Part shown: positions 15,868-19,133 of the stretch, in pieces
Position numbering within the stretch: position 1 is the first letter of the stretch
How the letters are laid out: every line of letters begins with the position of its first letter
NCBI GenBank assembly: GCA_037380845.1
Contig: JARRRI010000046.1
Span: forward strand, 1 to 28,224
Direction: 5' to 3'
DNA from: Candidatus Sulfobium sp.
GTDB lineage: Bacteria; Nitrospirota; Thermodesulfovibrionia; Thermodesulfovibrionales; UBA6898
DNA: 28,224 nt
Made by a program: the position numbers and the translations under genes
Notes under the pieces: generated by a model
What the model was told of the DNA's origin: nothing
Databases searched by the model: none
The model's input: only the letters and a program-made list of their open reading frames with translations

Positions 15868-16353
15868 TTACCACTTGGCCGGCGGGTTGATGCCCAGCAT
15901 CTGTCGCAGCGTGATTATCTCGCTTGTATGATAGGCGTTGTGGTCCGCCACAAGCAGGACCTCCCGGAAAATAGTGTAATCCTTTGCGTGAGGGATCGGG
16001 CTGAAAAAATCCGTATGGGGGTTTTTGACAAGGTCCTCCACTGCCTTGAGATCGGCCCGGAAATCCCTGACGGTCTTTTTCCATTGAGCTTCAACCGTTT
16101 TTTCATCCGGATCAGGCCAGAATTCCGCATAGTCGGGTGAGACATAATCCGGGTCCCTGACGAATTCGAGGATATCCCTCTGGGCCCTCCGCATATGTTC
16201 AAGGAGGTGCCAGAAGGTATAGTTGAAGTTCGACGGCCTTGTGTTTATGTGTTTTGCGGGAAAAGAGGCGATTGCCTCGTCGAAACCCATGTGGGCGTTG
16301 CCGCCGCGCAAGAGGGCGAGCAGTTGTTCGCGAAGGACTTTGTCAGATTTCAT
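15868..16353 (-). CDS. DinB/YfiT-superfamily metal-dependent four-helix protein
   Basis: WHLLEHM and DHNAYH His triad. Start ATG 16353. Confidence 0.88.
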   Translation of the reverse strand: MKSDKVLREQLLALLRGGNAHMGFDEAIASFPAKHINTRPSNFNYTFWHLLEHMRRAQRDILEFVRDPDYVSPDYAEFWPDPDEKTVEAQWKKTVRDFRADLKAVEDLVKNPHTDFFSPIPHAKDYTIFREVLLVADHNAYHTSEIITLRQMLGINPPAKW

Positions 16354-16495
16354 GGAATTTTCCTTTCTGTAGGATGACTTATTCAAATTCTACCAGAACA
16401 GGGGGGAAGTTCAAGTTCAGGGGTCTGTCTCGTCAAGATCACTCAATGTGATGGAAATTTGTCATTGACCCGAAAATGGCCATTAGATTCATTAG

Positions 16496-16603: not shown

Positions 16604-16632
16604 TTGACAGTGAACGACCGTTCACCTATAAT
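16604..16632 (+). promoter_or_regulatory. Consensus sigma70 promoter with an SOS-box-like operator in the spacer
   Basis: TTGACA (16604-16609), N17, TATAAT (16627-16632). The spacer contains the palindrome GTGAAC-GACC-GTTCAC (16610-16625). Confidence 0.9.
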
Positions 16633-16637
16633 AAATT

Positions 16638-17234
16638 ATGATGAGGCAAGACCTGAAAGAGGAAAAGCTGCGGTCCAAGATAACTGACATCACCCGTTTC
16701 TACAGGCTGAGCGGCAGGATGCCGAGCTTTTCGGAGATCGGGGAGATGGCGGGTTTCCGTTCCAAAAACGCGGTCTTCAAGCTTGTTAGCAAGCTTGAAG
16801 ACCGCGGGGTCCGGGCAAGAGACGCGAAGGGCAGGCTCGTACCCGGCTCGATAGCGTCTTCCGTAAAGATACTGGGTACCGTGGAGGCCGGTTTCCCGAG
16901 TCCGGCCGAGGAAGAGCTGGTGGACACTCTCTCACTCGACGACCTCCTCATACAGAACCGCGAGGCCACCTTTCTGCTCAAGGTGTCAGGCGATTCCATG
17001 TCCGGGGCCGGAATACTCCCGGGGGACATGGTGTTGATCGACAAGGGACAGACCCCGAAGAGCGGGGACATAGTTATTGCGGAAGTAGACGGCGAATGGA
17101 CCATGAAGTATCTGAGGAAGAGGGGGGAAAGCGTGGCCCTAATACCCGCAAACCCGAATTATAAACCTATAAAACCGAAAAACGAGCTCAAAATCGCCGG
17201 CGTGGTAACGGCGGTGGTGAGGAAGTACAAGTAA
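16638..17234 (+). CDS. lexA: LexA-like S24 self-cleaving repressor (N-terminal HTH + UmuD-like peptidase domain)
   Basis: MPSFSEIG..SKNAVFKLV HTH. Cleavage loop VEAGFPSPA, catalytic Ser in GDSM and Lys in WTMK. Confidence 0.88.
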   Translation: MMRQDLKEEKLRSKITDITRFYRLSGRMPSFSEIGEMAGFRSKNAVFKLVSKLEDRGVRARDAKGRLVPGSIASSVKILGTVEAGFPSPAEEELVDTLSLDDLLIQNREATFLLKVSGDSMSGAGILPGDMVLIDKGQTPKSGDIVIAEVDGEWTMKYLRKRGESVALIPANPNYKPIKPKNELKIAGVVTAVVRKYK

Positions 17235-17253
17235 GTCTGAAGGAGGAGAAAAC

Positions 17254-17439
17254 ATGACTGACGGATTTCTGCTTAAATTTTTTGGAGACCTTTTTTACCT
17301 GATCGTTGCACTCTTTGCACTTTATAGCCTGCGGGGTCTTTTCCGCGCACACAGGGCGATAAATTCAGCGGCTGTTAAGGCCCATATCACCGCATATGAG
17401 CTACAGAAGATGATAGAGAGCCGGACCCGGCAGATATAA
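17254..17439 (+). CDS. Small single-pass membrane protein (61 aa), unknown function
   Basis: Strong SD AAGGAGG, one hydrophobic helix, 19 nt after the repressor stop. Confidence 0.65.
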   Translation: MTDGFLLKFFGDLFYLIVALFALYSLRGLFRAHRAINSAAVKAHITAYELQKMIESRTRQI

Positions 17440-17457
17440 GAGAGAAATTGCGATCAG

Positions 17458-17484
17458 AGGGCAACCACACATGGTTGCCCTTAC
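17458..17484 (-). repeat. REP-like palindrome flanking the RAYT remnant
   Basis: AGGGCAACCA-N4-TGGTTGCCCT-TAC (GTA(A/G)GG-type foot on the minus strand). Confidence 0.75.
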
Positions 17485-17494
17485 AAAAAACATT

Positions 17495-17838
17495 ATGCAA
17501 TACAATCCCGACTTACACATCGCCGTTCTATCCGCCTGGGGGGACATGATTATTCACAGGCAGGGGCTTATTTTGTGACCGTATGCACGCAGGACAAGGA
17601 ATGTCTGTTCGGGGATATTGGTGATGGAGAAATGCGATTGAATGATGCGGGCCGGATGGTCCTGGGCATATGGCTGAAAATGCCAGAACATTTTCCACAT
17701 GTGGATATAGACGAATTTGTTGTAATGCCGAACCACATACACGGAATTATTGTGATCAATTCCAACGGTAGGGGCATGGCATGCCATGCCCCTACACGCA
17801 ATGTTCATGCAAATACCCCATGTCTACCCAGCCGCTAA
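17495..17838 (+). pseudogene. REP-associated tyrosine transposase (RAYT/Y1) remnant
   Basis: MQYNPDL/(frameshift)HRRSIRLGGHDYSQAGAYFVTVCT...VVMPNHIHGII (HUH motif). The C-terminal half with the catalytic Tyr is missing. Confidence 0.88.
17768..17795. repeat. Perfect 28-bp GTAG REP palindrome
   Basis: GTAGGGGCATGGCA|TGCCATGCCCCTAC. Confidence 0.9.
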
Positions 17839-19133
17839 CCATACGTTCCTGGCCGAGGGCGATAGTTCATCTGGACGCCGACGCTTTTTTTGCGTCCTGC
17901 GAACAGGCGGTCCATCCCGAACTCAGGGGGAAACCTGTGATCACGGGGAAGGAGAGGGGGATTGTGGCTGCTGCGAGTTACGAGGCGAAGGCCAGGGGGA
18001 TAGATAGGGGGATGAGTCTTCCGGAGATAAAGAGGGCCTGCCCTGACGTGATCATCGTGCCTTCGGATTACGAGACCTACAGCCTCTTTTCAGTCCGGAT
18101 GTTCGAGATACTCAGGCGGTTCTCGCCGGACGTCGAGGAGTACTCCATCGACGAGGCGTTTGTGGACCTGACAGGCCTGAGGAGGAGCTTTCACGGACCC
18201 TACGGGAGGATCGCCCGGAAGATGCAGGAAGCGGTCGAGGCCGAGCTGGGGATCACGGTATCGATCGGGGTGAGCCTCTCGAAGGTCCTGGCCAAGATAG
18301 GGTCTAAGCACAACAAGCCCCACGGGCTCACCCTGATTCCGGGGAGGGACATACACCATTATCTTGAGAGGCTGCCTCTTGAAAAAGTGTGGGGGATAGG
18401 GCCGAACACGGCGGCTTTCATGAGGAAGTTCGGCATCACCACTGCCCTGCAGTTCGCGGGAAAGGACGAGGCGTTTATAGAGAAATACCTCTCCAAGCCT
18501 TACAGGGAGGTGTGGAACGAACTGAACGGGAGGAGCGTCTATCCCGTCGTCACCGAATCCAAGAGCAGCTATCAGTCGATCAGCAAGACAAAGACCTTTA
18601 CCCCTCCTTCGGACGACGAGACCTTTGTCTTTGCCCAGCTTTCCAAAAACCTGGAGAACGCCTGCATCAAGGCCAGGCGCTACAAACTCGCGGCTACCCG
18701 CCTCCTGGTTTTCCTCAGGACGCGGGAGTTCAGGGACATCGGGGTAGAGATGAGACTAAGCGTCCCCACCGCCTATCCGGCCCACCTCTTAGGTCCCCTG
18801 CATGAGGGGTTCGATTACCTCTATAAGCCCCGGAGCTTCTACCGCCAGACAGGGGTTGTCCTTGCCGGCCTGGTGCCGGACACGAGGGTCCAGTACACGC
18901 TTTTTGATGACACCGCGAGGATAGAGAAGCTTGGCAGGGTCTACAACGCCGTCGACACTATATCCGAAAAGTACGGAAAATACGCCGTCCACCATGCCTC
19001 AAGCCTGCCGACGAAACTGCAGGCCCTTCATGAGGGTGAAAGGGGCGATGTCCCGGAGAGGACAAGGAACCTTGTAAAGGGTGAAAACAAAAGGCAGAGG
19101 CTTAAGCTGCCGATGATGCAAATAAAGGTTTGA
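17820..19133 (+). CDS. Y-family translesion DNA polymerase (DinB/UmuC family, with UmuC-like signatures)
   Basis: HLDADAFFASCE, SYEAK, YSIDEAF, KVLAK, VWGIG, clamp-binding-like QYTLF. Start taken as ATG 17820. Confidence 0.93.
   Translation: MSTQPLTIRSWPRAIVHLDADAFFASCEQAVHPELRGKPVITGKERGIVAAASYEAKARGIDRGMSLPEIKRACPDVIIVPSDYETYSLFSVRMFEILRRFSPDVEEYSIDEAFVDLTGLRRSFHGPYGRIARKMQEAVEAELGITVSIGVSLSKVLAKIGSKHNKPHGLTLIPGRDIHHYLERLPLEKVWGIGPNTAAFMRKFGITTALQFAGKDEAFIEKYLSKPYREVWNELNGRSVYPVVTESKSSYQSISKTKTFTPPSDDETFVFAQLSKNLENACIKARRYKLAATRLLVFLRTREFRDIGVEMRLSVPTAYPAHLLGPLHEGFDYLYKPRSFYRQTGVVLAGLVPDTRVQYTLFDDTARIEKLGRVYNAVDTISEKYGKYAVHHASSLPTKLQALHEGERGDVPERTRNLVKGENKRQRLKLPMMQIKV

What the first reader, a model, noticed from the sequence alone, without database searches (positions are those of the whole stretch)
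16604..19133. Self-repressing Pol V-like mutagenesis cassette: HTH-UmuD-type repressor plus UmuC-like polymerase
Seen: the S24 protein has an N-terminal HTH, but its cleavage loop is AGFPSPA. The co-oriented polymerase has FFASCE, YSIDEAF, VWGIG and QYTLF followed by a 'VD.I..KYG' tail. Known: AGFPSPA is typical of UmuD/MucA rather than canonical LexA (VAAG.P), and these polymerase motifs resemble E. coli UmuC more than DinB. Acinetobacter UmuDAb is a precedent for UmuD-like repressors. Inference: one protein may both repress the operon and, after RecA-stimulated cleavage, supply the UmuD'-like subunit, giving a two-gene self-contained SOS mutagenesis switch. Automated pipelines would label this 'lexA + dinB' and miss it.
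Basis: partly seen in the sequence, partly recalled or inferred. Interest (0 to 1): 0.8.

Follow-up and report, generated by a model that had tools for sequence, protein, structure and literature searches.

The report
LexA-UmuD hybrid with UmuC-like polymerase
This bacterium's only DNA-damage repressor (LexA) has a self-cutting half that resembles UmuD, the helper of the mutagenic polymerase Pol V, and lies just upstream of a polymerase most closely related to Pol V's enzyme, so one protein may both switch the system on and help it work.

Summary
ORF 16638-17234 is a LexA-type repressor: wHTH, A84-G85 cleavage site, S120/K157 dyad. It has the UmuD-type arm AGFPSPA. ORF 17820-19133 is an active-looking Y-family polymerase.

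The repressor is the only LexA homologue in the genome. Its consensus promoter carries a GTGAAC-N4-GTTCAC palindrome in the spacer. This arrangement was conserved in all 11 orthologous promoters first examined. No comparable site occurs elsewhere in the genome.

LexA lies upstream and co-oriented in 18 of 20 related loci and in 61 of 80 public loci across several phyla. In trees the polymerase clade is sister to UmuC, not DinB, and AU tests reject both alternatives. The LexA falls outside the canonical LexA clade, near UmuD.

A relative without the HTH sits directly upstream of the same polymerase type. Whether the cleaved fragment serves as a UmuD'-like subunit is untested, because the complex predictor was unavailable. 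Acinetobacter UmuDAb is an experimental precedent.

In this window, 585 bp separate the two genes. They hold a conserved 61-aa membrane-protein ORF and a transposase remnant.

This scan has noted the same cassette before on other DNA (e1-2237058, e1-848407, e1-1581854).

Verdict: a new variant of a known kind, of moderate interest.

The parts
16604..16632 (+). Promoter: TTGACA, 17-bp spacer, TATAAT. The ATG lies 5 to 8 nt after the -10, so the transcript is probably leaderless or nearly so.
   Evidence: 12 of 12 consensus matches. The same layout occurs in 11 of 11 orthologous lexA promoters.
16610..16625 (.). Putative LexA operator, the palindrome GTGAACgaccGTTCAC (GAAC-N4-GTTC class), filling the promoter spacer.
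   Evidence: Conserved (10 of 11 exact, 1 with one mismatch; 39 of 55 exact). It is the only site above 16 bits in a whole-genome matrix scan (25.2 bits against 15.9 for the next).
16638..17234 (+). lexA-type gene (198 aa): a divergent LexA wHTH plus an S24 autopeptidase domain with a UmuD-type arm.
16887..16907 (+). Codons for A84-G85-F-P-S-P-A, the predicted self-cleavage site and the start of the UmuD'-like N-terminal arm.
   Evidence: A84, G85, P87, S88, A90 and E91-E93 are invariant in 18 relatives.
17254..17439 (+). 61-aa ORF preceded by GGAGGAG, with one hydrophobic N-terminal helix. It is conserved between lexA and the polymerase gene in a subclade.
   Evidence: No Pfam match.
17485..17838 (+). 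Remnant of an IS200/RAYT-like gene, frameshifted near its start and truncated. Its end overlaps the polymerase start.
   Evidence: 58% identity over 96 aa to the first half of a 213-aa ORF at the same place in a relative. Weak REP_Tyr_transpos and Y1_Tnp matches.
17820..19133 (+). Y-family DNA polymerase (437 aa) with catalytic D19, D21, D111 and E112 conserved. It belongs to a clade sister to UmuC.
18891..18905 (+). QYTLF, a beta-clamp-binding-type motif (QxxLF).
   Evidence: Q358, L361 and F362 are invariant. It aligns with QLNLF of E. coli UmuC. The motif class is described in PMC12926913 (passages).
18933..18995 (+).
   Evidence: D379, G386 and K387 are invariant. It aligns with the matching UmuC stretch. 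The motif is described in PMC6511836 (sections 12-13). No Pfam DUF4113 match was found.
19032..19130 (+). Conserved far C-terminal tail (ERGDvP.R...GEN.RQRL.lP), partner unknown.
   Evidence: R408, R414, G421, E422, R425, L428 and P431 are invariant or nearly so across phyla.

Best explanation
This is a self-repressed DNA-damage cassette: promoter and operator, then a LexA/UmuD hybrid, a small ORF, and a polymerase that is sister to UmuC.

**Proposed mechanism**
1. The dimeric repressor binds the GTGAAC-N4-GTTCAC palindrome that fills the spacer of its own consensus promoter. This shuts off lexA, the 61-aa ORF and, by read-through, the polymerase gene.
2. RecA bound to single-stranded DNA stimulates self-cleavage at A84-G85 by the S120/K157 dyad, and the operon is derepressed.
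3. The polymerase reaches stalled forks through its QYTLF clamp motif and its RecA-NT-like motif.
4. The released C-terminal fragment (G85-K198) begins with the same GFPSPA..(acidic)..LD.LLI arm as UmuD'. It then serves as the polymerase's accessory subunit, as UmuD' does for UmuC and as UmuD1389/UmuDAb does in Acinetobacter.

**Status of each step.** Gene content, motifs, operator conservation, synteny, co-inheritance and tree positions are shown here. Repressor binding, cleavage and co-transcription are inferred from family knowledge. The accessory role is inferred from comparative evidence only.

**Odds.** About 0.9 for steps 1 to 3 and about 0.5 for step 4. The confidence given is for the whole statement.
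For: **Repressor and operator**
- This is the only strong S24 match in a genome rated 100% complete. The second, weak match is a 147-aa protein without an HTH.
- The operator sits in a perfect promoter and is conserved in 11 of 11 orthologous promoters.
- It is the only strong site in the genome. No box lies in the 600 bases read upstream of recA.

**UmuD likeness of the repressor**
- It scores 124.7 bits on the UmuD model (cut-off 110), against 85.4 for E. coli LexA.
- It is 46% identical to E. coli UmuD over 119 aa, against 31% to E. coli LexA over 192 aa.
- Its best PDB sequence match is UmuD.
- Cleavage motif counts: AGFPSPA in 9 of 11 LexAs of this type, with the other 2 AGWPSPA; [AC]GFPSPA in 7 of 7 UmuDs; AGxP[IL][LP]A in 3 of 3 canonical LexAs and 5 of 5 LexAs of a second cassette type.
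- Canonical plus second-type LexAs form a clade that excludes this type, at 100/99 for the full-length tree and 99/94 for the C-terminal domain alone.

**Polymerase**
- The split {this clade + UmuC} against {DinB, second-type PolY, UvrX} has support 100/99.
- It persists at SH-aLRT 99 without the C-terminal tail.
- AU tests reject grouping with DinB (p 0.0008) and with second-type PolY plus UvrX (p 2.4e-5).

**Linkage**
- lexA is upstream and co-oriented in 18 of 20 related loci; the other 2 are cut by contig ends.
- It is upstream in 61 of 80 public loci. This includes all 12 loci labelled Patescibacteria, Omnitrophota, Armatimonadetes or Gammaproteobacteria.
- The gap is 60 bp or less in 35 of the 61.
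- The LexA ortholog is present in 19 of 20 genomes that have the polymerase ortholog and in 0 of 21 without it.

**Accessory role**
- A 141-aa relative without an HTH, keeping the arm, GDSM and Lys, lies directly upstream of the same polymerase type (L104/L145).
- Complete 117-134-aa relatives exist. Three of them lack the catalytic Ser, and one starts at the cleavage point.
- PMC13062779 (passages) reports that the LexA-like UmuD1389 with UmuC2015 gave the highest MMS mutagenesis.
Against: - No direct test of binding was possible.
- HMM scores favour Pol IV-type models (245 and 220 bits) over the UmuC model (152). All are under their cut-offs.
- The C-terminal-domain tree is a star for this LexA type and UmuD. 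The AU test does not reject one clade of all LexA-named proteins (p 0.397).
- The core of the domain is about as similar to the Mycobacterium tuberculosis LexA C-domain (41-44% over 89-93 columns) as to UmuD' (44-47%). The UmuD likeness therefore lies mainly in the arm.
- PMC12926913 (passages) treats PolY-RecA pairs without a small subunit as a very common type.
- In this window 585 bp with a transposase remnant separate the genes, and co-transcription is unverified.
- The trees hold only 30 and 28 rows. They lack YqjH, YqjW, ImuB, DinP, DinX and other named groups.
- The genomic context of the Ser-less short forms was not seen here.
Confidence: 0.5

Rival explanations
1. This is an ordinary autoregulated lexA-polY SOS operon. 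LexA is only a repressor, and the polymerase works alone or with RecA and the clamp (the 'PolY-RecA' type). The UmuD-like arm is retained ancestral sequence needed for RecA-stimulated cleavage.
For: - The protein has a full LexA architecture and passes the LexA equivalog cut-off.
- The operator lies in its own promoter.
- LexA next to Y-family polymerase genes is reported in PMC3765255 (passages) and PMC6511836 (section 17 passages).
- PolY-RecA pairs without a small subunit are described as widespread in PMC12926913.
- The AU test does not reject LexA monophyly.
- Earlier scan notes e1-836943 and e1-1142240 read similar loci as ordinary.
Against: - It does not explain why HTH-less and Ser-less derivatives of this same domain are kept. 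At least one of them sits directly upstream of the same polymerase type.
- It does not explain why the arm after the scissile bond matches UmuD' and not other LexAs.
- It does not explain why the polymerase keeps a conserved far C-terminal tail.
- It does not explain why LexA is found only in genomes that carry the polymerase.
Confidence: 0.4
2. In this particular genome the cassette is uncoupled. The insertion of the RAYT-like element and the small ORF separates the polymerase from the LexA-controlled promoter, so the polymerase is expressed independently or is on the way to loss.
For: - 585 bp separate the genes, holding a transposase remnant whose end overlaps the polymerase start.
- No second operator occurs near the polymerase.
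- In one same-genus relative (G001) the polymerase match is split in two pieces.
Against: - No terminator-like site and no other promoter-like site lies on the + strand between 16633 and the polymerase start.
- The polymerase ORF is intact with all invariant residues.
- Relatives tolerate 2-6 kb of co-oriented cargo at the same junction and still keep both genes.
Confidence: 0.07
3. The pair is cargo of a phage or other mobile element, with a CI-like repressor controlling a mobile-element polymerase, and is not a cellular SOS system.
For: - Distribution among relatives is patchy.
- The cassette occurs in several phyla, with LexA and polymerase identities correlated at r 0.88.
- Defence and toxin-antitoxin cargo is inserted at the junction in relatives.
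Against: - The window's neighbours are housekeeping genes such as phosphoketolase, aspartate-semialdehyde dehydrogenase and a multihaem cytochrome.
- No integrase or phage genes lie nearby, and G+C is even across the window.
- The N-terminal domain is LexA-type, not CI/XRE-type.
- Phage matches to the polymerase are 31.5% identical or less among the 25 records listed, and under 60% in all 124 matching records.
Confidence: 0.03

Closest known systems
[quoted passage not shown]
   Same: One S24 protein of about 200 aa, cleaved at A83-G84 (here A84-G85). It represses error-prone polymerase genes. According to PMC13062779 (passages), it also gives an active Pol V with a UmuC after cleavage. The host has no other LexA (abstracts and passages).
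   Different: UmuDAb is encoded apart from its UmuC partner, needs the corepressor DdrR, and controls many genes. Here the gene heads the polymerase operon, the N-terminal domain is LexA-type, and only one operator was found in the genome. The polymerase is a sister of UmuC, not a UmuC. I did not compare the two sequences.
E. coli umuDC (Pol V, UmuD'2C-RecA-ATP)
   Same: The gene order is S24 protein then Y-family polymerase, often overlapping in relatives. Also shared are the [AC]GFPSPA arm, the clamp motif followed by a RecA-NT-like motif and a further tail, and control by LexA.
   Different: UmuD has no DNA-binding domain and umuDC is repressed by a separate LexA. This polymerase fails the UmuC model cut-off (152 against 431) and lies outside the UmuC clade.
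Geobacter-type lexA - imuB-C - polY operon (PMC6511836, section 17; Jara et al. 2003 as cited there)
   Same: A damage-inducible operon headed by lexA and ending in an active Y-family polymerase. The same order as this genome holds such cassettes: lexA, a 79-81-aa ORF, then polY.
   Different: There is no ImuB-C-like gene here. That type's LexA has AGxPILA and clusters with canonical LexA, and its polymerase clusters away from UmuC.
Canonical LexA with the GAAC-N4-GTTC (Cheo-type) box of Gram-positive bacteria
   Same: wHTH plus S24 architecture, autoregulation, and the operator class. The operator class is named from recall and from earlier scan notes.
   Different: No regulon beyond its own operon was detected. 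It carries the UmuD-type arm, and it lies outside the canonical LexA clade.

Membership tests
LexA (NCBIfam TIGR00498) | Score over the curated equivalog cut-off across both domains | tested here: met
   124.0 bits against a cut-off of 110.95, residues 23-197 on profile positions 20-202 of 203. E. coli LexA scores 289.5.
LexA (NCBIfam TIGR00498) | N-terminal winged helix-turn-helix of LexA type | tested here: met
   Foldseek matches full-length LexA structures over 193-200 columns. The model shows three helices then two strands. Pfam LexA_DNA_bind is only weak (E 0.0036, under its cut-off).
LexA (NCBIfam TIGR00498) | Ala-Gly cleavage site and Ser/Lys dyad | tested here: met
   A84-G85, S120 and K157 are invariant in 18 relatives.
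LexA (NCBIfam TIGR00498) | Palindromic operator in its own promoter (autoregulation) | tested here: met
   Sequence evidence only. Binding is not testable here.
LexA (NCBIfam TIGR00498) | Control of a wider SOS regulon (recA, uvr genes and others) | tested here: not met
   The matrix scan finds one strong site in the whole genome. No box lies in the 600 bases read upstream of recA. Of the six weaker matrix sites, the two examined lie inside ORFs.
LexA (NCBIfam TIGR00498) | Clusters with experimentally known LexA proteins | tested here: inconclusive
   The clade of canonical plus second-type LexA excludes it (100/99 and 99/94). The AU test does not reject one LexA clade (p 0.397).
UmuD (NCBIfam NF007621) | Score over the curated cut-off and the [AC]GFPSPA arm | tested here: met
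   124.7 bits against a cut-off of 110. The arm is identical to 7 of 7 UmuDs sampled.
UmuD (NCBIfam NF007621) | Short protein without a DNA-binding domain | tested here: not met
   An 83-residue wHTH domain precedes the cleavage site.
UmuD (NCBIfam NF007621) | The cleaved form binds and activates its polymerase | not testable with these tools
UmuC (NCBIfam NF002955) | Score over the cut-off and placement inside the UmuC clade | tested here: not met
   152 bits against 431. It is a sister clade, not nested within UmuC.
DinB / Pol IV (NF002677 and related models) | Score over the cut-off and clustering with DinB | tested here: not met
   219.8 bits against 256, and the best model NF002848 gives 245.2 against 381. 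The AU test rejects grouping with 5 DinBs (p 0.0008). The genome has a separate canonical DinB on contig C65.
Geobacter-type lexA - imuB-C - polY | A stand-alone ImuB-C gene between lexA and polY | tested here: not met
   The ORF between the genes here is an unrelated 61-aa membrane-type protein. The 79-81-aa ORF is present in the other cassette type of relatives.

The most novel reading that the evidence does not exclude
This cassette preserves the ancestral form of Pol V. The SOS repressor and the polymerase's activating subunit are one protein, and the polymerase is the sister of UmuC. On this reading umuDC arose from such a lexA-polY operon by loss of the DNA-binding domain. The HTH-less and 'pre-cleaved' relatives would be independent repeats of that step. 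In these lineages LexA would exist solely to gate and then arm a single mutagenic polymerase, not to run a broad SOS regulon.
Probability: 0.3. Interest if true: 0.75.

Novelty: new variant of a known kind. Interest (0 to 1): 0.55.

Why it matters
If the cleaved repressor fragment is a polymerase subunit, the dual role just shown for Acinetobacter UmuDAb would not be unique to that genus. PMC13062779 calls it 'unique to A. baumannii'. It would instead be a widespread design found in Nitrospirota, candidate-phyla bacteria and others.

It would also give a concrete scenario for the origin of umuDC.

It would explain how a 'PolY-RecA' polymerase with no annotated helper is restrained.

Finally, it shows a minimal SOS system in which the repressor and one polymerase are inherited together. 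Automatic annotation hides this as 'LexA' plus 'DNA polymerase IV'.

Tried and rejected
- **Complex prediction.** The job was the polymerase plus two copies of residues 85-198. The queue was full, and the tool was declared unavailable. No verdict was obtained.
- **RNA evidence.** No RNA holder was listed among 14 runs, so co-transcription could not be examined.
- **Pfam DUF4113 on the polymerase tail.** No match even at E 10. The RecA-NT reading rests on the alignment to UmuC and on PMC6511836.
- **A wider LexA regulon.**
  - GAAC-N4-GTTC occurs 49 times in the genome against 47 expected.
  - The extended palindrome at C26:7285 precedes a TetR-type gene and is probably that regulator's own site.
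  - A recurrent one-mismatch site (C6:67826, also seen in other genera) lies in no convincing ORF and matches no Rfam family. It remains unexplained.
- **Dropped row.** One DinB row (L137) was removed from the polymerase tree because my script picked the wrong ORF.
- **Timinskas and Venclovas supplement.**
  - The Nitrospirae rows shown are 'gbDinB2-like' or 'ungrouped' and do not look like this polymerase.
  - The Thermodesulfovibrio genome's identifier occurs once in the file, in the genome table (Table S1).
  - I did not compare this polymerase with the full table, so the group may already be there under another label.
- **Paper not read.** The Patescibacteria SOS paper named in an earlier scan note (Sanchez-Osuna et al. 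2017) was not among the five papers returned by my search.
- **Print searches** for a LexA fragment acting as a polymerase subunit outside Acinetobacter found none.
Full report
**What is there**

The window is contig C46 of a 3.18-Mb draft genome rated 100% complete. Names given to close homologues place it in Nitrospirota, order Thermodesulfovibrionales.

ORF 16638-17234 (+) encodes 198 aa. It has a Peptidase_S24 domain (E 2.8e-30), a cleavage site A84-G85 inside AGFPSPA, and the Ser120/Lys157 dyad.

ORF 17820-19133 (+) encodes 437 aa with IMS, IMS_HHH and IMS_C domains. The longer reading from 17781 is unlikely, because most of the 120 listed homologues are 437 aa. Their key residues are invariant in an alignment of 20 relatives from several phyla.

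The finding's start coordinate is the -35 hexamer of a perfect TTGACA-17-TATAAT promoter. The spacer of that promoter is filled by the palindrome GTGAACgaccGTTCAC.

The genes are not adjacent. The 585 bp between them hold two features:
- A 61-aa ORF with a good ribosome-binding site, 17254-17439.
- A frameshifted, truncated IS200/RAYT-like remnant, about 17485-17838. It is 58% identical over 96 aa to the first half of a 213-aa ORF at the same place in a relative.

No terminator-like site and no further promoter-like site lies on the + strand between the promoter and the polymerase start.

**Is the S24 protein the cell's LexA?**

A Pfam S24 search of the whole genome finds this gene and one weak match. 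The weak match is a 147-aa protein without an HTH. No separate canonical lexA exists.

The protein passes the LexA equivalog cut-off over both domains (124.0 against 110.95). Its AlphaFold2 model (mean pLDDT 71) matches full-length LexA crystal structures over 193-200 columns. The N-terminal domain is divergent, giving Pfam LexA_DNA_bind only E 0.0036.

The promoter-with-operator layout recurs in 11 of 11 orthologous lexA promoters (10 exact boxes, 1 with one mismatch). In a wider set, 39 of 55 testable promoters carry the exact GAAC-N4-GTTC. Most of the others have one-mismatch or GTAC-type variants at the same place. For three loci my window missed the site or none was seen. The start codon follows the -10 by only 5 to 8 nt, so the mRNA is probably leaderless.

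A position matrix built from those sites scores the window's site at 25.2 bits and nothing else in the genome above 15.9. Of the six weaker matrix sites, the two I examined lie inside ORFs. The gene recA follows another gene, and no box lies in the 600 bases read upstream of it. Across 41 related genomes, near-matches to the palindrome are about as frequent as matches to a reversed control pattern. Exact matches are nearly always the lexA promoter alone. On sequence evidence the regulon is this one operon.

**Is it UmuD-like?**

| Measure | This protein | Comparison |
|---|---|---|
| Score on the UmuD model (cut-off 110) | 124.7 bits | E. coli LexA 85.4; E. coli UmuD 163.3 |
| BLAST identity to E. 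coli UmuD | 46% over 119 aa | 31% over 192 aa to E. coli LexA |
| Best PDB sequence match | UmuD, 86 bits | LexA, 82 bits |

The cleavage motif separates the groups cleanly in my sample:

| Group | Rows | Motif |
|---|---|---|
| LexAs of this cassette type ('type A') | 11 | 9 AGFPSPA, 2 AGWPSPA |
| UmuDs | 7 | all [AC]GFPSPA |
| Canonical LexAs | 3 | all AGxP[IL][LP]A |
| LexAs of a second cassette type ('type B') | 5 | all AGxP[IL][LP]A |

The similarity continues through the whole arm after the scissile bond (listing).

In maximum-likelihood trees of 28 S24 proteins, canonical plus type B LexAs form a clade that excludes type A. Support is 100/99 for full-length sequences and 99/94 for the C-terminal domain alone. 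Type A, UmuD and two other HTH-S24 proteins form an unresolved star. An AU test does not reject a single clade of all LexA-named rows (p 0.397).

The domain core is also about as similar to the M. tuberculosis LexA C-domain (41-44%) as to UmuD' (44-47%). The UmuD likeness is therefore real but concentrated in the arm.

**What is the polymerase?**

HMM scores alone favour Pol IV-type models (245.2 and 219.8 bits) over the UmuC model (152.0). All are below their cut-offs. For scale, E. coli DinB scores 74 on the UmuC model.

BLAST aligns the protein with UmuC over 393 aa, through the clamp motif and the following motif. It aligns with DinB over only the first 228 aa.

I built a 30-row tree: 11 type A, 7 type B, 6 UmuC, 5 DinB and 1 SPbeta-like UvrX. 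One mis-extracted DinB row was dropped. The results were:
- Type A is a clade (99/98) and sister to UmuC (100/100).
- The split {type A + UmuC} against the rest has support 100/99.
- AU tests reject holding type A with DinB (p 0.0008) and with type B plus UvrX (p 2.4e-5).
- A tree of residues 1-350 only, without the tail, keeps the split at SH-aLRT 99.

The genome also has a canonical DinB on contig C65.

Sampling is thin. YqjH, YqjW, ImuB, DinP, DinX and other groups of Timinskas and Venclovas are missing. The safe statement is 'sister to UmuC among the groups sampled, not a DinB, not a UmuC'.

The tail carries three conserved features:
- A QxxLF clamp motif.
- A motif that aligns with the RecA-NT-like motif of UmuC (PMC6511836 sections 12-13).
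- A conserved far C-terminal segment.

PMC12926913 (passages) says the very C-terminus of UmuC binds one UmuD' subunit in their model of Pol V.

**Is the pair conserved?**

Among 41 genomes of the same order, 20 have an ortholog of the polymerase (52% or more identity by tblastn). lexA lies upstream and co-oriented in 18 of these. The other two loci are cut by contig ends.

The LexA ortholog (61% or more identity) is present in 19 of those 20 genomes. The exception is a genome rated 86% complete. It is present in none of the other 21.

A scan of one genome per species returned 80 loci, some of them the same genomes as above:

| Result | Loci |
|---|---|
| lexA upstream and co-oriented | 61 |
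| No lexA within 3 kb (three shown to have it further upstream) | 15 |
| Too little upstream sequence | 4 |

All 12 loci labelled Patescibacteria, Omnitrophota, Armatimonadetes or Gammaproteobacteria have the pair. The gap is 60 bp or less in 35 of the 61, and in several the reading frames overlap. LexA and polymerase identities to the window's proteins correlate at r 0.88.

Where the gap is large, it holds co-oriented cargo:
- A full-length RAYT-like gene.
- PIN and AbrB-type toxin-antitoxin genes.
- DNA methylases.
- A Ser/Thr kinase.
- An AbiEii-type nucleotidyltransferase.
- A DUF5131 gene.

A second cassette in the same order runs lexA, a 79-81-aa ORF, then polY. It matches the Geobacter lexA-imuB-C-polY layout described in PMC6511836.

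**Does the fragment serve the polymerase?**

The comparative evidence is as follows:
- The arm after the cleavage site is the UmuD' arm.
- In one Patescibacteria genome, the slot upstream of a type A polymerase (47% identical) holds a 141-aa protein. It has the arm, GDSM and Lys but no HTH. A second, longer S24 ORF lies elsewhere in that genome.
- In a sample of 201 genomes of that class, 8 had a type A polymerase. Seven had a full LexA upstream and one had this short form.
- A search of 1.84 billion representatives with the C-terminal domain found complete 117-134-aa relatives, 46-60% identical. Three of them lack the catalytic Ser, and one begins at the cleavage point. I did not see their genomic context.
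- Earlier notes of this scan (e1-2237058, e1-848407, e1-1581854) describe such forms directly upstream of this polymerase type. I used those notes as leads. My own evidence is L104/L145 and the sequences.
- In Acinetobacter baumannii, the LexA-like UmuD1389 (UmuDAb) with UmuC2015 gave the highest MMS-induced mutagenesis of the variants tested (PMC13062779, passages). This is an experimental precedent for one protein acting as both repressor and UmuD' source.

Against this stand the weak resolution of the S24 tree, the reported abundance of PolY-RecA pairs without a helper, and the absence of any binding data.

**Verdict**

The functional claim is plausible at about even odds and remains untested.

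The system is best filed as a new variant of known kinds (umuDC, UmuDAb, lexA-headed polymerase operons). It is not a member of UmuD, UmuC or DinB as those families are defined. I found no description in print of a LexA fragment acting as a polymerase subunit outside Acinetobacter. The supplements of PMC6511836 were only partly read, and one relevant paper on Patescibacteria was not available.

Noticed in passing
window 17254-17439 (+): A 61-aa ORF with a strong ribosome-binding site, one hydrophobic N-terminal helix and a conserved C-terminal IKAHITAYELQKM(V/I)E segment. It is kept between lexA and the polymerase gene in the window and 11 public loci. It is also found in several of the order's loci, some from the same genomes. 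It has no Pfam match. It may be a damage-induced small membrane protein such as a division inhibitor or toxin, but that is a guess.
   Followed up: partly
window 17235-17819; loci L030-L034: The junction between lexA and the polymerase gene is an insertion hot spot. In relatives it holds 2-6 kb of cargo, always co-oriented with the operon. The cargo includes a RAYT-like gene, PIN and AbrB-type toxin-antitoxin genes, DNA methylases, a kinase, an AbiEii-type nucleotidyltransferase and DUF5131. Defence genes may thus be placed under SOS control.
   Followed up: partly
G000 contig C65, locus L003 1483-2856 (+): The genome's canonical DinB is fused in frame to the last 113 positions (32-144 of 144) of a D-Tyr-tRNA deacylase profile. 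Relatives have DinB of 341-349 aa. This is either a real deletion-fusion or an assembly artefact.
   Followed up: no
loci L115-L122 (relatives): A second LexA-headed cassette occurs in the same order: lexA, a 79-81-aa ORF (weak Pfam DUF6504), then a 405-429-aa polY. It resembles the Geobacter lexA-imuB-C-polY operon. One genome (G009) has both cassette types.
   Followed up: partly
proteins P0147, P0157, P0165 (and other two-stretch hits): Proteins of 249-285 aa carry two tandem S24 domains. The first has a GFPSPA arm and, in these three, lacks the catalytic Ser. They may be single-chain UmuD'2-like proteins.
   Followed up: no
G000 contig C6 67826-67841: CTGAACAACGGTTCAC is a one-mismatch copy of the operator. 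It recurs identically or nearly so in at least seven related genomes. Here it lies in no convincing ORF and matches no Rfam family. Unexplained.
   Followed up: partly
window 16769-16806: An inverted repeat scored as 17 pairs (10 G-C), with a 4-base loop, lies inside the lexA coding region, in the part encoding the DNA-recognition helix. The scan flagged it as terminator-like on the minus strand. The encoded residues differ in relatives, so it seems specific to this lineage.
   Followed up: no
window 15868-16386 (-): The divergent upstream neighbour belongs to the DinB_2 superfamily (PF12867), named after a Bacillus damage-inducible protein and unrelated to the polymerase. The sequences upstream of lexA differ among relatives, so the pairing is probably not conserved.
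   Followed up: no
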